From IMG/VR virus record IMGVR_UViG_648276665_000002, positions 1-15,065 of that record: a DNA stretch of 15,065 nt; one strand, 5' to 3'. The position numbers and the translations under genes were made by a program. The first letter of the stretch is position 1. The number at the start of each line of letters is the position of its first letter. The stretch comes from a virus. Its lineage: Duplodnaviria; Heunggongvirae; Uroviricota; Caudoviricetes. Below the pieces are notes generated by a model. That model was not told the DNA's origin, did not search any database, and was given only the letters and a program-made list of their open reading frames with translations. Positions 4,504 through 15,065 of the stretch are shown here, piece after piece.

Positions 4504-5733
4504 TCAACCACCAACGCTACCTTTCCCCACCAGCGCTTTAATGGCAGAGGTGTCTTCCAGGATACAGTCAAAACGATGGAAGGCCAGAAAACCGGTCTGA
4601 TCATATTCCGCGTAACGCTCAACCAGACGTTTAAGAATCATGTATCGCACACGACGGATAATGAAGCGATCAAAGTCACCACAGAACATGAATTTTTTAC
4701 CCGCCCCGATATCATCAATTTCCTGATCAATGACATACGGTACATTCAACACTGAAGCAGGTGCCACACCAACAATATCCGGCAACCATAAAGGGCGTCC
4801 CTGACCGTCTTCCATCTCACTGATCAGTTTCAGCGTATTATCGTTAAATGCCAGGCGGAATTTCGGTCCGCGACGATATGCAGGATCAATGCTGTGTTTC
4901 AGAGCCAGAATTTCCTGCCACTTCACCGCATTTGCCGCGGCAGTCTGTGTTGTGCCGGTCACTGATGCTGCCAGCCCTTTGGGTTGTTTAGGCGTACCAG
5001 CCCCCGTCCCCTGAATCAGATAACGGGCTTCACCACGACCAATACGTTCAGCAATGCGACGGGCAAGATAAGCTTCCATATCGATCGCGCTGTCCTGCAG
5101 CAACTCATTAGACACACGAATGATTTTCGATGTCATTTTGAGCGCCCCAAGGCTTCCCATACCGAAATCGGTGTCTTCTTCACCGGCTTCTTCATTTTCG
5201 CCCAGCAGAACACCAACTTCGGAAGTACCATCAGCTGTTGCCCACTCCATAGTGCGACCGTCAGAAGTGGTCAGAATCTGCGCCACACTGGCGATGCCAC
5301 CGTAGGATTTCATTTTCTCAACAACTTTCGCCAGGAATGTTTCTGGTACGGTATATCCGCCCTTTTCATCCTGAGCTACACCCTGGGCACGAAGTTCACG
5401 CAACGCCTTTCGTTCTTCTGATGTCAGCTCACTGGCACCGTGACGCATCCACTTATCAAAAACCTGAGCTCGTTTCTCATCCTGTTGTGGATTGTTTTCC
5501 GGATCAAGATTCTGACGCTGCTCTTCCTCATTGCTTTCAATGTACGCCTGATCTTGACGACGCAGTTCTTCTTCGCGTGCAATTCGTTCATCAAGCGCTT
5601 CCAGTTCGGATTTTGCTTTGTTCCACTCAGTGCGCTGCTCTTCCGTCCATGCGTTATCACCAATTTTTTCATTCAGGGCGCGCATGTCAGTTGCGATAGT
5701 ATTACGTTTCTGTTTCAGTTCATGCAGTTTCAT
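4504..5733 (-). CDS. Major capsid protein, HK97 fold, with N-terminal scaffolding (delta) domain
   Basis: 409 aa; AAGGAAA RBS; N-terminal ~120 aa highly charged coiled-coil-like region (KQKRNTIATDMRALNEKIG...EEELRRQDQAYIESNEEEQRQ), then a capsid body; directly downstream of the prohead protease. Confidence 0.9.
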   Translation of the reverse strand: MKLHELKQKRNTIATDMRALNEKIGDNAWTEEQRTEWNKAKSELEALDERIAREEELRRQDQAYIESNEEEQRQNLDPENNPQQDEKRAQVFDKWMRHGASELTSEERKALRELRAQGVAQDEKGGYTVPETFLAKVVEKMKSYGGIASVAQILTTSDGRTMEWATADGTSEVGVLLGENEEAGEEDTDFGMGSLGALKMTSKIIRVSNELLQDSAIDMEAYLARRIAERIGRGEARYLIQGTGAGTPKQPKGLAASVTGTTQTAAANAVKWQEILALKHSIDPAYRRGPKFRLAFNDNTLKLISEMEDGQGRPLWLPDIVGVAPASVLNVPYVIDQEIDDIGAGKKFMFCGDFDRFIIRRVRYMILKRLVERYAEYDQTGFLAFHRFDCILEDTSAIKALVGKGSVGG

Positions 5734-5743
5734 GATGTTTCCT

Positions 5744-6364
5744 TTACGCGTTAAGAAGGGTCAGGACGCGTTCACGCGCCATACGTTGATTAATGGCTTT
5801 CTGTAGCGCGCCGCTGTTGCGCGCCTCCTGCCATGCTTTCATGGAGCGAACAGCCGAGTCAGCCTCCTGATAGGCAGGATATGTCACAGGACTGACATCC
5901 AGCAGACGGGAAAAGCGGGTTATCTCGCGAATAACAACCCCGTCCTCATCCTGATACCACTCCTCGCCGTCACGGGCGACACGGAAAGCAAAAGATGACT
6001 GGTTAATATCTCCACGTTGCATCGGGGCCAGCACCAGATCACGAATGGTCTGTGTCTCCGGAGCCTGGATGTCATAGCGCAATCCGCGCTCATCAACTGA
6101 AAGATTCAGCGTGCCTGCTGCACTACGCCCAAGAATAAAATTAGGATCGTGGTTAAACAGTGCGCGTACATCATCACCAAGCACATCGTCAAAAGCGCCG
6201 GGCCGGATGATTTCGCGGAATGAACCAAATATCAGCTCAGAACGACAGTCAAACACCGATCCATAACCGATAATGTGCGCAGGGTTATCGTCATGCCGCT
6301 CAGCACGCACCTCACCGCTGTAACAACGGATTTCACGGTCATTCATTGGTTTTTCCCTCATCAT
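5744..6364 (-). CDS. Prohead maturation protease (HK97 family)
   Basis: Position between portal and capsid genes; sequence character fits HK97 prohead proteases. The ORF-track start at 6403 overlaps the portal gene; ATG codons at 6364, 6361 or 6346 are more likely starts (6346 lies 2 nt past the portal stop). Confidence 0.85.
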   Translation of the reverse strand: MMREKPMNDREIRCYSGEVRAERHDDNPAHIIGYGSVFDCRSELIFGSFREIIRPGAFDDVLGDDVRALFNHDPNFILGRSAAGTLNLSVDERGLRYDIQAPETQTIRDLVLAPMQRGDINQSSFAFRVARDGEEWYQDEDGVVIREITRFSRLLDVSPVTYPAYQEADSAVRSMKAWQEARNSGALQKAINQRMARERVLTLLNA

Positions 6365-7565: not shown

Positions 7566-7716
7566 GCGTCCCCCTTCTGGCCATAGCCAGTGCGCCCACC
7601 AGCAGTAAACCGCCGGACAGCATCAGAGCCGGAGCCATACCAAACTGCAGGTAAAACCCGCACGTAAGCAGGCCAAAACCAGCCAGCCCGATAACATCAG
7701 CAATTAGTGATTTCAT
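7555..7716 (-). CDS. Small putative two-helix membrane protein between terminase and portal
   Basis: ATG at 7716..7714 overlaps the terL TGA (ATGA). 53 aa, [53 protein letters not shown], two hydrophobic stretches; overlaps the portal start by 11 nt. Found by manual translation. Confidence 0.4.
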
Positions 7717-9446
7717 AGAATTAAGAGAGCATCGTCCGGATCAAGAGATGAGAGGAAATCGTCGGGTTCTTTGAGCATTGCCCGACCGATCGCCATAATC
7801 AGTGCAACCGCACCATCGATTTTGTTTTCCGCCTGCTCCTTGACAGGCTTCACCACATCATCGTTACCCGGAATGGTTTTGCCGACCACGTTGCCGATAC
7901 ACCAGGTCATGATGGGATTGCCATCATGATGAAAGCGCCCCGATTCAATTGCCGCTTCCAGCTCTTTCATCGGGTCGGACATGTTGGTGTAGTTCTGAAT
8001 GATAGTGATGGGGTTCAGGTCTTCATCAGCAAGGTCATGTGACAACCCGGTCGCCCCGAAGGGGTCGATGGGTGACTCACTGACCGGGCTGATTTTGTTC
8101 GCCGCTTTGGCCTCCTCGAGGATGTAGCGATAATCCACCTCCGCACCATCGGTAACGGTCAGAACGCCCATTTCCACCCATTTCTGAAAGCGTTCGGCTG
8201 TCCGGCGATCTTCATTTTTCTCGACGCTGTACACCGTGTCATACGGTACCCAGAAGCGCGGAGCCACACTGTAGTAATGCGTTTTACCGTCAATCTCGCG
8301 GGTATAAAGTCGCGCCATGCTGTTCATATCCAGCTTACGCGCCAGGTCAAAGGCCAGAATGCACGGCTGCCCCTCGAACTGCTCAAGGGTCAGTGATTTA
8401 TCCTCGCAGCTCTGCCAGCTCACCAGGTTGAAATACGCCGAACGCGCCGACACCCAGATATTGAGGTGTTTTGTTTTAAAGACGTTTGCCAGACGGGCGT
8501 TATTTTTCGCACGCTGCTGCTGACTTAACAAAAATTCGCGATAAACCGACACGCCAATATTTGGATTGGCTTTTTCCAGCACCTGCGGGTCGGTCCAGTC
8601 ATCGCCTTCGTCAACGGTATAGATGATCCCGAACAGTTCATCGTTGGGTACCGAACCGTTGAGCATCTCGATAACTTCCCGCCGCTTGTCGTAGCACGGC
8701 CCCTCAATGTTGTACCCGGCGGTGGTGATGGCCCACATCAGTGGCTGACGTCGCGCGCCCATCCCGGTAAGCATCGTGGTATAAAGCGCATCGGTGGCGT
8801 GCTCGTGATATTCATCCACCACGGCACAGTGGGGTGATGAACCATCACCGGGGTTACCGATCAGCGGTTCAAACCGCGCGCCATCCTCCGGACGGTTCAT
8901 GTTTGAGGCGTTAACCTCAATCCCGAACGCTTCCGTCAGCATGGGTGTGCGTTTACACATCAGTCGCGCCGGGCGAAAGACTTCCCACGCCTGTTTCTCT
9001 GTCGTGGCACCGGAATACACTTCCGCGCCAAACTCGTTATCACAGGCAAAACAATACAGGGCAACACCGGCAGAGATTGCCGATTTGCCGTTCTTACGGG
9101 GGATTTCGGTATACACCTCCCTGAAGCGGCGCAGCCGGGAGCCTTTATTGACCCAGCCAAACGCACAGCAGATCACAAAGAGCTGCCACGGTTCCAGCGT
9201 GATGGGCATCCTCTTGAATGCCCACTCCCCCTTGGTGTGTGGCAACAGCTGAATAAATTTCGCGGCCCGTTCAGCCAGGTCCTTGTCGAAGCGGTAACGA
9301 AACGACTTACTTTTTTCCGCCATCAGGTCATCAAGATGGCGCTGGCAGGCCTGAATCACAAACTGGCAGGCCACAATCTTTCCGCGCACGACATCACGGG
9401 CATACTGATTGGCAGCATTTACGTTGGGGTAAGATTTCCGGCTCAT
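7713..9446 (-). CDS. Terminase large subunit
   Basis: 577 aa; ATG at 9446..9444 overlaps the terS TGA (ATGA); N-terminal ATPase-like and C-terminal nuclease-like regions; followed by the portal gene. Confidence 0.95.
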
Positions 9447-10413: not shown

Positions 10414-11170
10414 TATTAATGTCCTAAATAGTTTCCTCTCTAAAAACTAATTTGTGTTAGGGAAATCATTAAATGAAGTGAACCTTTTAGTACCCACTGT
10501 AAAATTCACTTCATTAATATTTAACCAAATACAATGAATGTTCCAAAAGATGCTAATGATATATTTATCAGAGAATCCATACGAGCCTTAATTTCTGGCG
10601 TATTCTCGACCTCAGTACGCCATTGATTGACTGCCTCAATCATATCTCGACAAAACACATCTATTTGCAACTGAAGTTTGCCATTTAAGTGATTTAAATG
10701 CACTTGGCAATTTGTCCTAGGTGGTGGTGTAAAATTAAACTGCATCATTCTTTTCCTGTTCTCTGGATCCTGTCCAGCATGTAAACAAGAACAACGATAC
10801 AGCCAAAAATCATCCGCATAAAATCGACACTGTTCATGTGTACCGGATGTATATTTATTTTCAAGATAACGAGAAACCCAATCTTTATACCATTTCCCTG
10901 TTTCACCCTTACCTATTTTGGGACGTTCAACGCTCCTGCAAATATCAGGCATAGCAAGAGCCATAAACAATGCCGCTAACCAATTCTCACTTTCAATTGA
11001 AGATTCAATTGATTTTATAAACCTTTCCATAACTCACCTTTATATTATTTGATGATTATATTTATAGCACAGTTACAATCATTTTCCGGAAAATATTTAT
11101 TCATTTTGATATCCTATTTTTAGAATATCCTTTTTATCTCTATTGCATTGCGCTAATGCAGATAACAAAC
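10414..11170. other. AT-rich cargo island A between the lysis cassette and HNH/terminase
   Basis: Base composition drops visibly between about 10414 and 11170 relative to flanking phage genes; contains one well-formed ORF with its own RBS. Confidence 0.6.
10521..11030 (-). CDS. Hypothetical protein of unknown function (cargo of island A)
   Basis: 169 aa; AGGTGA 5 nt upstream of ATG 11030..11028; TAA stop at 10523..10521; AT-rich codon usage unlike neighbouring genes; hydrophobic C-terminal segment (LINISLASFGTFIVFG); no family recognised. Confidence 0.6.
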   Translation of the reverse strand: MERFIKSIESSIESENWLAALFMALAMPDICRSVERPKIGKGETGKWYKDWVSRYLENKYTSGTHEQCRFYADDFWLYRCSCLHAGQDPENRKRMMQFNFTPPPRTNCQVHLNHLNGKLQLQIDVFCRDMIEAVNQWRTEVENTPEIKARMDSLINISLASFGTFIVFG

Positions 11171-12088: not shown

Positions 12089-12415
12089 TTACTCCTTAGA
12101 GCCACCAAACTTATTACCGATTACTCTCATTGCAGCCCCACGAATAGCATCGACCCCGATCAGCCCAACGCCGCCACCAATGGCAACAGAAAGAGATTTA
12201 GGCCATCCGACATACTCAAGAGCGGATGCAAAAGTCAGCGTCAGAGCACCACAGAGCAAAATCTCGAGCGTTTTTCGTTTCCAGCCACCACCACCGCCAA
12301 AATAGGCAATGCGCAAGCCAGCCATAACGATCGACATAATCACTGCGCCCAGCGGTGTGTCTCCACGCCACCAGCTCTGGACCAACTCCAGCCAGGTATT
12401 TGGGTTATGAGGCAT
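12089..12415 (-). CDS. Holin
   Basis: 108 aa; hydrophobic Gly-rich segments consistent with 2-3 TM helices; immediately upstream of the endolysin. Confidence 0.75.
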   Translation of the reverse strand: MPHNPNTWLELVQSWWRGDTPLGAVIMSIVMAGLRIAYFGGGGGWKRKTLEILLCGALTLTFASALEYVGWPKSLSVAIGGGVGLIGVDAIRGAAMRVIGNKFGGSKE

Positions 12416-12557
12416 TTGTAGTTATCTCTCACCTCGCTGATACAGCAGGTGCAAATTGAGGGAACATCATGTACCGCAAATCAGAAGCGGAAACGTCAAA
12501 GAAGCCGAACCAATGGATAACTGCGGGATAGGTCAGGCCCAACGAATAGCCGGGGCC

Positions 12558-12596
12558 AGAAACGACAAAACCCGCTCGAAGACGGGTTTAAGCTGT
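12558..12596 (-). terminator. Candidate tR'-like intrinsic terminator upstream of the holin
   Basis: Plus 12568-12589 aaacccg-ctcgaaga-cgggttt; on the minus strand the 7-bp stem is followed by ttgtcgttt. Position upstream of the holin resembles the lambdoid pR'-tR' arrangement. Confidence 0.3.
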
Positions 12597-12599
12597 GTG

Positions 12600-12697
12600 G
12601 CGAAGTAACCACTCTTAACAGATTACAAGAATTTTTGCGTACGCGTTAATTTTTTTGTATTTTTCTCATTACACAACATATAAACCCTATGTAAAAA
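12600..12697. promoter_or_regulatory. AT-rich divergent promoter region: candidate late promoter (minus strand) and candidate promoter of the island B operon (plus strand)
   Basis: Plus strand: TTACAA...TTAATT and TTGCGT-17nt-TATTTT hexamer candidates upstream of ATG 12698. Minus strand: TTAACG-16nt-TGTAAT about 40 nt upstream of the tR'-like hairpin. All by eye. Confidence 0.25.
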
Positions 12698-13981
12698 ATG
12701 ACAGCAGAAATAGCCGTATTTAACAAGACCGCAGTAGCTTTAGCCGCAGATTCAGCTGTAACGATTTCTGGAGGCGGCAAACATAAAATCTATAATGGCG
12801 CTGAAAAGCTTTTCGCTCTAACTAAACATCATCCTGTAGGTTTGATGGTATATGGAACTGGTGATCTCTGCACAGCTCCATGGGAGCTTATCATTAAGGC
12901 TTATAGAAAGGATTTAGGCTCTAAATGTTTTGACTCTTTGGAGGAATATGCTGAGGATTTCTTCAATTATCTACAGTCGGCTAAATCAATCATCACACCA
13001 GGTATGCGTGAGGCTCATCTTTATCACTTCCTGAGCGAGATTGTATTCAGCATGCTTGTTGATGCTTTTTCTGAAGGTCTCGAACCAACATATTTCGTTA
13101 ACTTCGATAAGAATCAATTTGTTACAGACCTCACGAATTATTGCAACGATCTCCTTACAAAATTATCTGATATTAATTACTTTGATGGTTTTACTCCGGA
13201 TGATGAACAAGCAGCCCAAACCTATGCTTCATCAGTTACCCAACGCATCATTGCTCAAAAGTTTAGTGACTTTGATTCAATATCCATAACCCCACAGTTG
13301 ACAAAAGCAGTTAGTGATGTATTGGCAGCTATGATATGCAAGCAAAGTGATATTGGTTCCGTCTCTGGGATTGTGATTGCAGGTTATGGCGATAAAGACT
13401 ATTACCCTAAAGTATTATCATATGAAGTTTGTGGCTTCTTTAATGATAAAATCAGGAAAACCACAGATGCTGACAAGTGCTGCATCACTCCTAATTGCGG
13501 AGTGACTCCCTTTGCGCAAGAGGATGAAGTTTCTGCTTTCATGCAAGGAGCTAGTTCACATCTTATTCAAAATCTTCATGCTGAGTATCAACGTTCTATC
13601 GGCGATTTACTTGATGGTATTGATTCAGTAATCACAGATTTGGTGCCCACTTCAGATATCGAAGGAGCCAAGGATGCTATAGTTGATGTAGTGCGCAGGA
13701 CTGTTTCCGATTGCAAGGGGCGTATTGATAGCTTTGTCCGAGAAAACTATGTTGACAAAGTCGTAAATATGATCGAGTTTTTACCCAAGCAAGATTTAGC
13801 TTATATGGCTGAATCATTAGTAAATTTAACCGCTTTCAAGCGCAAGGTCTCCGATGATACTGAAACAGTGGGAGGCCCCATAGATGTTGCAATCATTTCT
13901 AAAGCTGATGGTTTTATCTGGGTTAAACGTAAGCACTATTTTGCAAAAGAACTGAACCATCACTACTTTTCACGGTCATAG
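12698..13981 (+). CDS. 427-aa protein with a putative N-terminal-nucleophile (HslV/proteasome-beta-like) hydrolase domain and an unassigned C-terminal region
   Basis: ATG 12698, TAG at 13979-13981. Begins M-T (MTAEIAVFNKTAVALAADSAVTISGGGKHKIYNGAEKLFAL..VGLMVYGTGDL); compare HslV [24 protein letters not shown]...KKVRRL...AGFAGGTAD. Thr directly after Met, Asp at the Asp17-equivalent position, KLF as in proteasome GKKLF, a GxG-D motif, and CGVTPFAQ (267-274) versus HslV GSGGPYAQ. No clear SD upstream. Confidence 0.6.
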   Translation: MTAEIAVFNKTAVALAADSAVTISGGGKHKIYNGAEKLFALTKHHPVGLMVYGTGDLCTAPWELIIKAYRKDLGSKCFDSLEEYAEDFFNYLQSAKSIITPGMREAHLYHFLSEIVFSMLVDAFSEGLEPTYFVNFDKNQFVTDLTNYCNDLLTKLSDINYFDGFTPDDEQAAQTYASSVTQRIIAQKFSDFDSISITPQLTKAVSDVLAAMICKQSDIGSVSGIVIAGYGDKDYYPKVLSYEVCGFFNDKIRKTTDADKCCITPNCGVTPFAQEDEVSAFMQGASSHLIQNLHAEYQRSIGDLLDGIDSVITDLVPTSDIEGAKDAIVDVVRRTVSDCKGRIDSFVRENYVDKVVNMIEFLPKQDLAYMAESLVNLTAFKRKVSDDTETVGGPIDVAIISKADGFIWVKRKHYFAKELNHHYFSRS

Positions 13982-14004
13982 CAACAAATAGACAAGGGGA
14001 ACAC

Positions 14005-14154
14005 ATGTCACTTAAGCAAGCCTATGAAAGAACTCAACCCAAAAGCATCAATGATTTCTTTCAGTTGAGTACTTCTGGAAAGAGTCGACGTACTGTAACA
14101 AGCCAATCTAACTTCTTTACTAAATTGAACAAAACATTACCTGCACAATCCTAA
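14005..14154 (+). CDS. Small hydrophilic basic protein (49 aa), second gene of the island B operon
   Basis: AAGGGGA 5 nt upstream of ATG 14005; MSLKQAYERTQPKSINDFFQLSTSGKSRRTVTSQSNFFTKLNKTLPAQS; TAA at 14152-14154 immediately followed by the terminator hairpin. Confidence 0.4.
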   Translation: MSLKQAYERTQPKSINDFFQLSTSGKSRRTVTSQSNFFTKLNKTLPAQS

Positions 14155-14193
14155 AAAGTTAAAAGCCACTACGGTGGCTTTTAACTTTTATTT
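14153..14193. terminator. Bidirectional intrinsic terminator shared by the island B operon (+) and the Q gene (-)
   Basis: Perfect 12-bp stem gttaaaagccac / gtggcttttaac (14158-14169 / 14174-14185) with tacg loop, flanked by A5 on the 5' side and ttttattt on the 3' side, so a U-tract follows the hairpin on either strand. Confidence 0.65.
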
Positions 14194-14538
14194 ACATGCA
14201 ATAACGCTCGTAATACCCTCTACAAAACCAATTGCAGTTTGCAATTCCTTTCTAATCGTGCCATCTGAACACCTTCTCTTTTTGGCAATAGTGCGTAATG
14301 AGATACCAATAACAAAGTGGGCTATGATGAGCTCATATTCCTCTGGTTTATACCTTCTCAACCGAGCCACACAACTGTCTATCATAATGCCTTCGTCATC
14401 ATCACACTGAATCCGTGACTTTTTGCCATGAGGTAAAAGCCCCTTGAAGCCTGCTGCTATCGGCTGCCAGTCCACGCCACTGTTATCTGCTGCAGCCCAT
14501 GCTCCCCAGCGGTCCAATACTTCATACATATCACGCAT
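14188..14538 (-). CDS. Late-gene antiterminator Q (QuuD-like)
   Basis: ORF-track start at 14553 is TTG; likely start ATG 14538..14536 with GGAGAAAG upstream. MRDMYEVLDRWGAWAAADNSGVDWQPIAAGFKGLLPHGKKSRIQCDDDEGIMIDSCVARL parallels E. coli DLP12 QuuD (VLERWGAWAA...IAAGFKGL...SRPQCCDDD) as recalled from memory. Confidence 0.8.
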   Translation of the reverse strand: MRDMYEVLDRWGAWAAADNSGVDWQPIAAGFKGLLPHGKKSRIQCDDDEGIMIDSCVARLRRYKPEEYELIIAHFVIGISLRTIAKKRRCSDGTIRKELQTAIGFVEGITSVIACK

Positions 14539-14555
14539 CAACTTTCTCCACAAAA

Positions 14556-15065
14556 TCAGGCCAGCACGCCAATTGCCAGCGCACGATCGATAAAACGAAA
14601 TACCAGCTCCAGCTGGGAGCCATACTTCTCTTCAAATGCCACGGTATCCGCATGCAGCTCGTCGTGATGCTTTCTGCACAAAGGCAACACAAAGAGGTCA
14701 TGCGCTTTTGTACCCATCCCACCCTGACCGTGGCCTATCAGGTGGTGGGGATCATCAGCAGGCTTTCCACAACATGCACACGGCTGTGTCTTAACCCAGC
14801 GCGTGTACTTTTCATTAACCCAGCGGCGACGTTTTGGGCGTAACATAAAAGACTCCGGCGACTCCGGATCCACTTTCAGCGCCAGCACCTTTTTCGCCTT
14901 ATCCTGGATGATGCTGGTAGCAGGAACCGAAGGCACAAGGTCACTTTCCCGGGTAACAGACGGCACAACAGGCTTCGGTAATCTCAGTGCCTTACGGGCT
15001 GCACTTTCCGGTAAGGCATCCGCCAGGTCATTACGAACCAGCCACCAGCACAGTTCCGGCAGTCG
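14556..15065 (-). CDS. nin-region protein, DUF968-like (putative nuclease); 5' end beyond the right window edge
   Basis: Cys/His-rich motif CACCGKPADDPHHLIGHGQGGMGTKAHDLFVLPLCRKHHDELH. The reading frame stays open upstream of the ORF-track start (GTG at 14966) to position 15065 (…RLPELCWWLVRNDLADALPESAARKALRLPKPV-VPSVTRE…), so the gene probably starts outside the window. Confidence 0.55.
   Translation of the reverse strand, partial: RLPELCWWLVRNDLADALPESAARKALRLPKPVVPSVTRESDLVPSVPATSIIQDKAKKVLALKVDPESPESFMLRPKRRRWVNEKYTRWVKTQPCACCGKPADDPHHLIGHGQGGMGTKAHDLFVLPLCRKHHDELHADTVAFEEKYGSQLELVFRFIDRALAIGVLA

What the first reader, a model, noticed from the sequence alone, without database searches (positions are those of the whole stretch)
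12600..14193. AT-rich two-gene island between Q and the lysis cassette, oriented against late transcription
The DNA from about 12600 to 14193 is markedly more AT-rich than the flanking phage genes. It carries two plus-strand ORFs (427 aa and 49 aa) while every phage gene in the window is on the minus strand. The island sits between the Q gene and the candidate late promoter/terminator upstream of the holin, so it would not be part of the Q-antiterminated late transcript. That pattern fits cargo expressed from the lysogen: horizontally acquired, own promoter, insulated by a terminator.
Basis: partly seen in the sequence, partly recalled or inferred. Interest (0 to 1): 0.7.

Follow-up and report, generated by a model that had tools for sequence, protein, structure and literature searches.

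The report
Prophage cargo: proteasome-like protease plus partner
The AT-rich island is a swapped-in two-gene cassette sitting in a prophage slot that in related phages holds known anti-phage genes, and it encodes an uncharacterised proteasome-like threonine protease with a conserved tiny partner protein, found across bacteria and archaea and probably a new kind of phage-defence module.

Summary
Bases about 12664-14187 have 39% GC against 53% for the rest of the window. They carry two plus-strand genes (427 aa and 49 aa) among minus-strand phage genes.

Related prophages show the island fills a variable slot between the Q stop codon and a conserved Q-linked block that looks like the late promoter and terminator. 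In other E. coli prophages this slot is empty or holds Kiwa, a TIR protein, DUF6650 or hypothetical genes, always on the opposite strand.

New here:
- A small ORF follows almost every homologue across Bacteria and Archaea, with a conserved aromatic-aromatic-Pro motif. Close relatives give dN/dS 0.05.
- All 14 annotated contexts I inspected are prophage cargo slots, satellites or integrase/restriction neighbourhoods.

My best reading is a lysogen-expressed defence or abortive-infection module in which the protease acts on, or is held by, its partner. The function is inferred, not shown.

The parts
12566..12663 (-). Conserved Q-associated block, the putative late promoter/qut region plus short-leader terminator. 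It is not part of the cargo.
   Evidence: 85-100% conserved in prophages with different cargo and in E. coli H3, whose lysis genes differ. It directly abuts the Q stop codon in the cargo-less phage PPyecE_EH1910. It contains the invariant TAACCACTCTTAACA (12606-12620). The promoter function is inferred, not shown.
12568..12589 (-). Terminator-like hairpin followed by a T-run on the phage (minus) strand, a candidate tR'.
   Evidence: Terminator scan. Folding gives -16.9 kcal/mol, z -2.1. The stem is conserved and the loop variable in relatives.
12635..12663 (+). Candidate outward-facing promoter for the cargo: -35 TTGCGT (12635-12640), 17-nt spacer, -10 TATTTT (12658-12663).
   Evidence: Read from the sequence. 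The same arrangement appears upstream of other cargos that share this allele: L002 TATTTT, L003 TAGTAT, Cronobacter TATTTT, Salmonella TATATT. The consensus scan did not call it. It is absent from the GCGGACCGC allele. Low confidence.
12664..14187 (.). Cargo island proper: the horizontally acquired AT-rich cassette.
   Evidence: GC 0.392 against 0.531. Similarity to prophages with other cargo stops at about 12663 and resumes at the Q stop codon.
12698..13981 (+). Gene for a 427-aa proteasome-beta-like N-terminal-threonine hydrolase with two helical inserts (PMI-type proteasome homologue).
14005..14154 (+). Gene for a 49-aa hydrophilic partner protein, preceded by AAGGGG (a Shine-Dalgarno-like sequence) 6 nt upstream.
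   Evidence: A small ORF at this position accompanies nearly every homologue. It is conserved in K. oxytoca, Enterobacter, Cronobacter and Salmonella, with dN/dS 0.05. The exact protein is called on 115 contigs.
14154..14189 (.). Perfect 16-bp inverted repeat, a bidirectional intrinsic terminator between the convergent small ORF and Q. It overlaps the Q stop codon.
   Evidence: Inverted repeat I3. RNA folding gives -25.4 (+) and -26.4 (-) kcal/mol, z -8.1 and -6.1. There is one compensatory T-A to C-G change in E. coli H3. Analogous hairpins sit at the same place in Cronobacter and Salmonella.
14188..14553 (-). Antiterminator Q gene (context; right border of the slot).
   Evidence: PF06530, E 2.2e-44; phrog_79.
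12089..12415 (-). Lambda-family holin, first gene of the lysis cassette (context).
   Evidence: PF05106, E 5.7e-25.

Best explanation
The island is a self-contained two-gene cassette that was acquired horizontally. It sits in a recombination-variable cargo slot of lambdoid prophages, between the stop codon of the antiterminator gene Q and Q's own late promoter/terminator block. It points away from the late operon and is closed by a bidirectional terminator, so it is placed to be expressed from the prophage independently of lytic late transcription.

Gene 1 encodes a cytoplasmic enzyme of the proteasome family. After the initiator Met is removed, Thr becomes residue 1. Together with Asp and Lys at the canonical positions, this forms the Ntn catalytic centre. 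Two helical inserts (about residues 95-215 and 287-360) evolve roughly ten times faster than the core. They probably prevent ring assembly and provide specificity.

Gene 2 encodes a small partner, about 45-80 aa, tightly linked to gene 1 and often overlapping it. In most lineages it carries a basic N-terminus, a conserved S..E[FYW].[KR].[FY][FLY]-P motif and an amphipathic helix.

I propose that the partner is the enzyme's cognate ligand. It would occupy the active-site cleft through the aromatic-aromatic-Pro motif. It would be either a pseudo-substrate or inhibitor, or a specific substrate cut or transpeptidated at the X-Pro bond, as connectase does at Asp-Pro. Phage infection would perturb this pair and release protease activity that blocks the infection, either as abortive infection or by destroying a phage protein.

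Shown: the composition, the boundaries, the variability of the slot, the fold, the catalytic-residue conservation, the conserved partner ORF, and purifying selection on both genes.

Inferred: the late promoter assignment, expression in lysogens, protease activity, the enzyme-partner interaction, and the anti-phage role.
For: Slot and cargo:
- Only 9 of 5426 E. coli genomes carry the cargo, while 2452 match the flanks.
- The same slot is empty or holds Kiwa, TIR, DUF6650 or hypotheticals on the opposite strand.
- The same module sits next to Q in prophages of Cronobacter, Salmonella, K. variicola, K. oxytoca and Enterobacter that have different lysis and terminase modules.

Other positions:
- Directly downstream of, and co-oriented with, the CI-like repressor in K. 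pneumoniae, a rexAB-like position.
- Just after the primase or replication gene of integrase-bearing satellite-like elements in Serratia and Alteromonas.
- At the end of Streptococcus satellites.
- Next to an integrase and a type I restriction system in Vibrio.
- In Providencia and Stenotrophomonas phages beside the holin.

Neighbours in 38 diverse loci include restriction/modification methylases, Eco57I, ResIII, DrmMI, mad2, SoFic, zeta toxin and PADLOC candidate systems. No third gene is conserved.

Enzyme:
- M1, T2, D18 and K37 are invariant, and the C-terminal motif GGPIDVAIISK.DGF aligns to the Thermoplasma beta subunit at 168-187.
- Nearly all of about 5000-6000 clusters at 50% identity align from residue 1.
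- dN/dS is 0.01 in the core and 0.05-0.10 in the inserts. Between E. coli and Alteromonas the core is 75% identical and the inserts about 20%.

Partner:
- An HMM built from 22 non-gammaproteobacterial partners hits 37 loci at E<=1e-3. Every hit lies directly downstream of the enzyme gene, and none lies among about 9300 other small ORFs.
- dN/dS is 0.05.

Precedent: connectase, a proteasome homologue with a helical insert, recognises a tag of about 20 residues and cuts Asp-Pro, forming an amide with its own Thr1.
Against: - There is no experimental evidence of any anti-phage effect, toxicity, proteolysis or enzyme-partner binding.
- There is no hit to any PADLOC model.
- The defence-neighbourhood signal is qualitative and was not compared with a control gene set.
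- Fuchs et al. 2021 reported no informative genomic context for these homologues.
- The window's own 49-aa protein is not detected by the partner HMMs. It is linked to them only by position, size, composition and a loosely similar L-x-Q-x-x-x-[KR]-x-x-P-K stretch.
- A few homologues (Rahnella, two Vibrio) lack a downstream ORF of 35 aa or more.
- The inserts are under relaxed purifying selection, not positive selection.
- No consensus sigma-70 promoter or Shine-Dalgarno sequence precedes the 427-aa ORF in the window.
- In Providencia phage the module is co-oriented with the late genes, so a role in the phage's own lytic cycle is not excluded.
Confidence: 0.5

Rival explanations
1. It is a toxin-antitoxin-like addiction module. 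The protease is toxic when free, the labile small protein neutralises it, and the pair stabilises the prophage, satellite or island rather than defending against phages.
For: The architecture is two genes with a tightly coupled or overlapping small second gene. It is carried exclusively on mobile elements in the 14 annotated contexts I inspected. HicAB pairs lie alongside it in Salmonella and K. oxytoca.
Against: Toxicity was not tested. The enzyme at 427 aa is far larger than typical type II toxins. No DNA-binding antitoxin domain is visible. The slot-mates Kiwa and TIR are defence genes rather than addiction genes. The two roles overlap in practice, because many TA modules act as abortive-infection systems.
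Confidence: 0.2
2. It serves the phage itself, as a counter-defence or host-takeover protease that degrades host immunity or regulatory proteins, or as a processing enzyme used during lytic growth.
For: In Providencia phage PSTRCR_117lys the module is on the same strand as Q and the lysis genes, between them. Homologues exist in isolated phages. Other proteasome homologues (PPH, AAH) are phage-borne.
Against: In the window and in at least seven other prophage backgrounds it is antisense to the phage genes, outside the inferred late transcript, and behind a terminator. It also occurs in satellites, beside restriction systems, downstream of a CI repressor, and in many non-phage loci of archaea and bacteria.
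Confidence: 0.12
3. It is a housekeeping or regulatory protein-modifying enzyme unrelated to phages, for example a connectase-like ligase whose only substrate is the small protein. It would merely hitch-hike on mobile elements.
For: Core conservation is extreme (dN/dS 0.01). The distribution spans Bacteria and Archaea. There is a connectase precedent for a specific, non-degradative reaction. No functional context was found in the 2021 survey.
Against: The distribution is patchy and strain-specific (9 of 5426 E. coli genomes). The composition is foreign. The module repeatedly occupies cargo slots, which is typical of accessory rather than housekeeping genes.
Confidence: 0.13
4. It is a decaying or functionless insertion, with the 49-aa ORF arising by chance.
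For: Every database name is 'hypothetical protein'. The small ORF is not annotated in E. coli H3.
Against: dN/dS is 0.01-0.10 for the large gene and 0.05 for the small one. There are about 5000 full-length clusters. The partner HMM hits only the position immediately downstream of the enzyme gene.
Confidence: 0.02

Closest known systems
[quoted passage not shown]
   Same: Proteasome-beta core with Thr1, Asp17 and Lys33 and no propeptide. Long insertions after helices H1/H2 and between H3/H4. Found in Proteobacteria, Firmicutes, Actinobacteria, Bacteroidetes, PVC, Cyanobacteria, Euryarchaeota and phages. It is the most populous PMI group.
   Different: That paper was a sequence and structure catalogue. 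It stated that no genomic context or co-occurrence suggested a function. The conserved small partner, the prophage, satellite and defence-hotspot locations and the core/insert rate contrast are not in it. I could not compare directly with the PMI-4 representative HDY66466.1, so the subgroup number is unverified.
Connectase (MJ0548/Mm connectase; PMC7980362)
   Different: Connectase lacks helices H1/H2 and has its insertion between S3 and S4. It is restricted to methanogens and its substrate MtrA is not an adjacent small gene. Here H1/H2 are present, the inserts are at other sites, and no reaction has been shown.
HslV / 20S proteasome beta / Anbu / BPH
   Different: There are about 240 extra residues in two inserts, which by the 2021 models should hinder ring stacking. 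There is no adjacent AAA+ unfoldase. The gene is accessory, patchy and carried on mobile elements.
Prophage and satellite defence hotspots and lambdoid morons (lambda rexAB downstream of cI; P2/P4 hotspots of Rousset et al. 2022; Tai systems upstream of packaging genes, PMC11364771)
   Same: A fixed position in a conserved phage backbone with interchangeable, compositionally foreign cargo that includes bona fide defence genes (Kiwa, TIR). The cargo faces the opposite way and has its own terminator. Homologues also lie downstream of CI and after satellite primases.
   Different: The precise site, between the Q stop codon and Q's own late promoter block, is upstream of where Stx toxin genes sit. 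I did not find it described as a hotspot in the papers searched. The cargo here matches no listed defence system.
Protease-based immune modules with a cognate small target (from my own knowledge: CalpL-CalpT, Craspase-Csx30, gasdermin-protease pairs)
   Same: The logic of a specific protease encoded next to the protein it cleaves or is controlled by.
   Different: The protease families are different (Lon, caspase-like, and so on). Those systems have an identified upstream sensor, and none is identified here. This resemblance is recalled from memory and was not tested.

Membership tests
Proteasome-like (T1) Ntn hydrolases | Four-layer alpha-beta-beta-alpha proteasome subunit fold | tested here: met
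Proteasome-like (T1) Ntn hydrolases | Nucleophilic Thr (or Ser) as the first residue of the mature chain | tested here: met
   M1-T2 is invariant in 58 of 58 aligned sequences. 74 of 74 loci start M-T-[AST]-[EQ]. Profile hits align from residue 1. Met removal is inferred.
Proteasome-like (T1) Ntn hydrolases | Asp17, Lys33 and Gly47 (oxyanion) equivalents | tested here: met
   D18 and K37 are invariant and G48 and G53 nearly invariant. Positional equivalence is judged from strand order in the model, not from a residue-level superposition.
Proteasome-like (T1) Ntn hydrolases | Peptidase or transpeptidase activity | not testable with these tools
   Needs biochemistry.
PMI-4 subgroup (Fuchs et al. 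2021) | Insertions after H1/H2 and between H3/H4, and no insertion between S3 and S4 | tested here: met
   The model has helices at 101-214 between H2 and strand 223-229, and helices 287-360 between H3 (275-283) and H4 (364-385). Only a loop occupies 23-34.
PMI-4 subgroup (Fuchs et al. 2021) | Sequence clustering with the PMI-4 representative (HDY66466.1) | not testable with these tools
   The sequence could not be retrieved and the supplement holds no sequences. The taxonomic spread and abundance fit PMI-4 best.
Connectase | Lacks H1/H2, has a two-helix insertion between S3 and S4, and is restricted to methanogens with an MtrA KDPGA substrate | tested here: not met
   H1/H2-like helices are present at 62-94, there is no S3/S4 helical insert, and the family is pan-prokaryotic. 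It works like connectase at most; it is not a member.
HslV | About 175 aa without inserts, encoded with the AAA+ partner HslU | tested here: not met
   The protein is 427 aa with two inserts. No AAA+ gene is conserved among 145 neighbours.
Known anti-phage defence systems (PADLOC-DB 2.0) | Match to a model of a listed or candidate system | tested here: not met
   No hits at E<=0.1 for either protein. There is also no NCBIfam (June 2026) or Pfam family.
Anti-phage defence systems (generic) | Preferential location in defence islands or mobile-element hotspots | tested here: inconclusive
   All 14 annotated contexts are prophage cargo slots, satellites or integrase/restriction neighbourhoods. Slot-mates include Kiwa and TIR. 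Neighbours in 38 loci include restriction/modification, DISARM, MADS and SoFic models. No control set or per-locus statistic was available.
Anti-phage defence systems (generic) | Protection against phage when transferred | not testable with these tools
   Needs plaque assays.
Lambdoid moron | Foreign composition, placement between conserved phage genes, and presence or absence among relatives | tested here: met
Lambdoid moron | Own promoter and terminator, and expression from the repressed prophage | tested here: inconclusive
   The terminator hairpin is strong. The promoter is only a weak candidate. Expression is not testable here.
Type II toxin-antitoxin | A small labile antitoxin that neutralises an adjacent toxin, usually with a DNA-binding domain for autoregulation | not tested
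   The two-gene layout is compatible. No DNA-binding domain was found in the partner. Toxicity and neutralisation need experiments.

The most novel reading that the evidence does not exclude
A pan-prokaryotic, two-gene immune module built on a proteasome-family N-terminal-threonine enzyme. The variable helical inserts would sense or select the target. The cognate small protein would be bound, cut or transpeptidated at its conserved aromatic-aromatic-Pro motif, in a connectase-like way, to arm or restrain the enzyme. This would be the first phage-defence system based on a proteasome homologue. It would also give the first function to one of the 22 orphan proteasome-like families, and it would define the Q-to-late-promoter gap of lambdoid prophages as a defence hotspot.
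Probability: 0.3. Interest if true: 0.85.

Novelty: new variant of a known kind. Interest (0 to 1): 0.68.

Why it matters
Proteasome homologues with insertions were catalogued in 2021 as a large set of enzymes with no known function and no informative context. This locus supplies three concrete handles:
- An obligatory small partner gene with a conserved X-Pro motif.
- Repeated placement in the cargo slots of prophages and satellites that otherwise hold Kiwa or TIR defence genes.
- A compact 1.6-kb E. coli cassette that can be cloned and tested directly.

If the module is defensive, it adds a new enzyme class to bacterial and archaeal immunity and links the proteasome family to antiviral defence in prokaryotes. 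If the enzyme is a specific ligase or protease like connectase, it could also be a useful tool.

The comparison also maps a defined, exchangeable cargo site between Q and its late promoter in lambdoid prophages. That site could be mined for further systems.

Tried and rejected
- Pfam, NCBIfam and PADLOC scans of both proteins gave nothing. PHROGs gave only an unnamed family.
- Sequence searches of the PDB with the protein and with the 58-sequence profile gave no meaningful hit. Only fold comparison revealed the family.
- Foldseek against viral models gave only a marginal proteasome-like hit. The AFDB library was not available.
- Rfam found no RNA family in the window.
- The sigma-70 scan found no plus-strand promoter upstream of the ORF.
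- dN/dS between E. coli, Cronobacter and Salmonella was unusable because synonymous sites are saturated. Closer relatives solved this.
- Partner HMMs built from other phyla or from other Gammaproteobacteria do not detect the window's 49-aa protein. Its homology to the wider partner family therefore rests on position and pattern only.
- I rejected the idea of diversifying selection on the inserts, because omega is 0.05-0.10.
- A 404-aa 'member' of the small protein's cluster is an unrelated FtsX-like permease, a clustering artefact.
- I suspected that the DUF968 gene was truncated, but it simply runs off the window.
- A 'resident promoter' shared by all cargos was weakened by finding a second allele of the block that lacks TTGCGT.
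- Literature searches for proteasome or Ntn homologues in phage defence, for WP_000123148, and for follow-ups of the 2021 catalogue found nothing relevant.
Full report
**1. The observation**

The window is the late region of a lambdoid, HK97-like prophage, read on the minus strand. It carries capsid and portal genes, TerL (7713-9446), TerS, an HNH endonuclease, Rz/Rz1, a lysozyme, a lambda-family holin (12089-12415), the antiterminator Q (14188-14553; PF06530, E 2e-44) and a DUF968/HNH gene that runs off the window end.

Between the holin and Q, GC drops to 0.375-0.407, against 0.52-0.54 on both sides. For the island as delimited below (12664-14187), GC is 0.392 against 0.531 for the rest. GC3 is 0.32-0.34 against 0.43-0.65 for neighbouring phage genes. 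Two plus-strand ORFs lie there: 12698-13981 (427 aa) and 14005-14154 (49 aa). The description is therefore correct. The only adjustments are that the foreign DNA begins near 12664 rather than 12600, and that a second AT-rich patch exists at 10414-11096.

**2. Boundaries and the nature of the slot**

A megablast search of 12400-14600 against 5426 complete E. coli genomes matched the flanks in 2452 genomes. Only 9 genomes carry the island, at 98.6-98.7% identity. Alignment with syntenic prophages shows three segments.

- The holin side is conserved up to about 12663. It includes a block (12566-12663) that holds a minus-strand hairpin with a T-run (12568-12589), the invariant TAACCACTCTTAACA, and TTTTTGCGTACGCGTTAATTTTTTT.
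- Similarity then disappears.
- Similarity resumes exactly at the Q stop codon.

In phage PPyecE_EH1910, and in many E. coli prophages where the match spans only 533 bp, the block abuts Q directly. In E. coli H3 the block, the cargo and Q are shared with the window (98.7%), while the lysis genes beyond the block are different. So the block travels with Q.

This is what is expected of Q's cognate late promoter, Q-utilisation site and short-leader terminator. I adopt that reading as an inference, because I could not identify convincing -35 and -10 hexamers. The cargo therefore sits between Q and its own late promoter, upstream of and antisense to the late operon. Stx genes lie at a different site, downstream of the late terminator (my own knowledge of Stx phages).

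**3. The slot is a cargo and defence hotspot**

In other E. coli prophages the slot carries different genes. In every case the cargo is on the strand opposite to the phage genes.

| Cargo | Source |
|---|---|
| KwaA + KwaB (Kiwa) | L003 |
| TIR-domain protein | L111 |
| DUF6650 protein | L112 |
| Two hypotheticals | L002 |
| 148-aa hypothetical | PhiR40_1 |

That criterion is clearly not met.

**4. Terminator and promoter**

A perfect 16-bp inverted repeat (14154-14189) lies between the stop codons of the small ORF and of Q. As RNA it folds at -25.4 kcal/mol on the plus strand and -26.4 on the minus strand, with z-scores of -8.1 and -6.1. T-rich sequence follows on both strands. E. coli H3 has one compensatory T-A to C-G change in the stem. 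Cronobacter and Salmonella have different hairpins at the same place.

The consensus scan found no sigma-70 promoter upstream of the large ORF. By eye there is TTGCGT, a 17-nt spacer and TATTTT at 12635-12663. The -10 position is kept as TATTTT, TAGTAT or TATATT in four other cargo-bearing relatives. A second allele of the block, GCGGACCGC, lacks this element. The promoter therefore remains a weak candidate, and expression in the lysogen is untested.

**5. The 427-aa protein**

Pfam, NCBIfam (June 2026), PADLOC and PDB sequence searches all give nothing. PHROGs places it in phrog_5990, of unknown function.

It has thousands of full-length homologues. 6311 of 8000 scored candidates reached E<=1e-3. 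In a library clustered at 50% identity, 6040 clusters reach E<=1e-3, 4992 reach 1e-10 and 3341 reach 1e-30. Nearly all are 417-457 aa and align from residue 1. Species-representative genomes show the family in Gammaproteobacteria, Bacteroidota, Planctomycetota, Chloroflexota, Actinomycetota, Bacillota, Nitrospirota, Acidobacteriota and Cyanobacteria. It is also in archaea, including Methanosaeta, ANME-1, Methanophagales and Hydrothermarchaeota, at 32-45% identity over the full length.

In a 58-sequence alignment reaching down to 40% identity, M1, T2, A3, E4, D18, S19, K37, G392, G393 and D396 are invariant. This reads like the proteasome set Thr1, Asp17 and Lys33.

The secondary-structure order places two helical insertions. 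One is after H1/H2 (about 95-215) and one is a long helical hairpin between H3 and H4 (287-360). There is none between S3 and S4.

This matches the 'PMI' proteasome homologues of Fuchs, Alva and Lupas 2021, most probably PMI-4. That is their most abundant PMI group, found in all the major phyla listed above, in Euryarchaeota and in phages. I could not obtain their representative sequence to confirm the subgroup. That paper explicitly found no genomic context or co-occurrence suggestive of function. I found no later paper giving these proteins a function or linking them to phage defence.

**6. Selection**

The core is extraordinarily constrained and the inserts much less so.

| Region | Mean frequency of the commonest residue |
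|---|---|
| N-terminal core | 0.81 |
| C-terminal core | 0.87 |
| Central core | 0.63 |
| Inserts | 0.40 and 0.35 |

Between E. coli and Alteromonas the core is 75-76% identical and the inserts about 20%. Among close relatives (K. oxytoca and Enterobacter, dS 1.1-1.8), dN/dS is 0.01 for the core and 0.05-0.10 for the inserts. The inserts evolve about ten times faster, but under purifying selection, not positive selection.

**7. The small ORF is a real, conserved partner**

Scanning downstream of the enzyme gene in about 90 loci shows an ORF of about 42-80 aa in nearly every one. It starts between -58 and +24 nt of the stop codon and often overlaps it.

Outside the Gammaproteobacteria these ORFs share three features:
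- a basic N-terminus;
- the motif S..E[FYW].[KR].[FY][FLY]P;
- a second conserved segment, [LF]G..LA.E[ST]L..[IF][RK]..L.

An HMM built from 22 of them hits 37 loci at E<=1e-3. Every one of those hits is the ORF immediately downstream of the enzyme gene. None lies among about 9300 other small ORFs in the same loci.

Gammaproteobacterial partners from Alteromonas, Vibrio, Mangrovibacter, Serratia and a Providencia phage carry a shorter version, L.[QE]W[RKQ].[KL]F[LN]P. They connect only weakly to the main family, at E 0.02-0.3.

The window's 49-aa protein belongs to an enterobacterial subgroup with its own conserved pattern: M.L[KR]Q[AS][FY][EQ][RK][ST]Q[PQ]K[ST][IV][NK]DFF ... N.FF. The HMMs do not detect this subgroup. 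Its relationship to the other partners is positional, plus a loosely similar stretch (LKQAYERTQPKS against LNQWRAKFLPKE).

It is nevertheless clearly coding. K. oxytoca against Enterobacter gives dN 0.053, dS 1.04 and omega 0.05. A Shine-Dalgarno-like sequence precedes it in all four genera. The exact protein is called on 115 contigs. No third gene is conserved: no Pfam family occurs in more than 4 of 145 nearest neighbours.

**8. Where the module lives**

Every annotated context I inspected (14 in all) is a mobile-element cargo position.

| Position | Hosts or elements |
|---|---|
| Next to Q, opposite strand | E. coli (two backbones), Cronobacter, Salmonella, K. variicola, K. oxytoca, Enterobacter; prophages with different holins, endolysins and terminases |
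| Directly after, and co-oriented with, a CI-like repressor (the position of lambda rexAB) | K. pneumoniae |
| Just after the primase or replication gene of integrase-bearing satellite-like elements | Serratia, Alteromonas |
| Last genes of the element | Streptococcus satellites |
| Beside an integrase and a type I restriction system | Vibrio |
| Beside the holin | Stenotrophomonas phage (opposite strand); Providencia phage (same strand) |

The position downstream of the primase gene has been called an accessory or immunity region of PICIs.

In 38 diverse loci, the four nearest neighbours include several defence-related families:
- N6 and Eco57I methylases and ResIII;
- DrmMI, mad2 and SoFic;
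- zeta toxin;
- PADLOC candidate systems;
- integrases.

This picture is consistent but qualitative. I had no control set.

**9. Mechanism**

Several features argue for a catalytically competent Thr-nucleophile enzyme. They are the invariant Met-Thr start without a propeptide, the invariant Asp and Lys, and omega of 0.01 in the core.

The two inserts occupy the positions that Fuchs et al. argue would obstruct ring formation or stacking. A monomeric or small-oligomer enzyme that is specific, rather than a degradative barrel, therefore seems likely.

Connectase provides the precedent. It is a proteasome homologue with a helical insert. It binds a tag of about 20 residues as an added beta-strand, cuts the Asp-Pro bond of KDPGA, and carries the N-terminal fragment on its own Thr1. 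The partner's most conserved feature is an aromatic-aromatic-Pro tripeptide inside a motif of about 12 residues.

I therefore propose that this segment docks in the active-site cleft. The partner would be either a pseudo-substrate, since an X-Pro bond is a poor scissile bond for most peptidases (general knowledge), or the enzyme's specific substrate.

The genomic setting is shared with Kiwa, TIR, rex-like and satellite hotspots. On that basis the most likely biological role is protection of the lysogen against other phages. The partner would hold or arm the protease until infection perturbs the pair. An addiction (TA-like) role is the closest rival and is not mutually exclusive. A phage-benefit role fits the Providencia arrangement but few of the other contexts.

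**10. Verdict**

The content is more interesting than 'two ORFs'. It is a member of a large, functionally orphan proteasome-homologue family. That family can now be tied to an obligatory small partner and to mobile-element immunity slots.

The function is inferred only. My confidence is about 0.9 for the cassette, slot and fold statements. It is about 0.5 for a defence or abortive-infection role, and about 0.25 for the specific enzyme-partner mechanism.

Noticed in passing
window 10414-11096 (ORF 10521-11030, minus strand): This is a second AT-rich cargo patch (GC 0.343, GC3 0.28) between the HNH gene and Rz1. It encodes a 169-aa protein (phrog_18591) with no Pfam, NCBIfam or PADLOC hit. The slot holds a GrlR-family gene in L003 and is empty in L002. 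Homologues are scattered in Arthrobacter, SPbeta-like, Acinetobacter, Gordonia and E. coli ECP1 phages. It lies 'upstream of the packaging module', where Tai defence genes were reported.
   Followed up: partly
window 12637-12646 and the same place in L104, L111, L112: The conserved block next to the cargo carries a short dyad that exists as two alleles. One is GCGTACGC (window, L001-L003, Cronobacter, Salmonella). The other is GCGGACCGC (empty-slot phage, TIR and DUF6650 prophages). The symmetry is kept in both, which suggests a protein-binding site or a small hairpin linked to the Q allele.
   Followed up: partly
window 12689-12700: An ATG-TAA start-stop mini-ORF (12689-12694) sits three bases upstream of the 427-aa start codon, inside an A-rich leader with no Shine-Dalgarno sequence. 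Homologues in Salmonella, Providencia and Serratia do have purine-rich Shine-Dalgarno-like sequences.
   Followed up: no
L095 5131-5784; L113 4102-4733: HicA/HicB toxin-antitoxin pairs lie on the holin side of the conserved block in the Salmonella and K. oxytoca prophages that carry the same module. Their orientations are opposite in the two. This points to a second cargo site just downstream of the putative late promoter.
   Followed up: no
L105-L107 6467-8469: In K. pneumoniae prophages a 44%-identical homologue and its 51-aa partner lie directly downstream of, and co-oriented with, the CI-like repressor. This is the position of lambda rexAB and implies co-expression with the repressor in lysogens.
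   Followed up: partly
L100 3501-4975 (Providencia phage PSTRCR_117lys): Here the module (48% identity, with a 58-aa partner) is on the same strand as Q, Dam and the lysis genes. The 'against late transcription' orientation is therefore not a fixed property of the module.
   Followed up: partly
L014, L015, L016: The Rahnella homologue and two Vibrio homologues (40-41% identity) have no downstream ORF of 35 aa or more. Rahnella has only a 34-aa ORF. Either the partner is dispensable in some lineages or it is encoded elsewhere.
   Followed up: no
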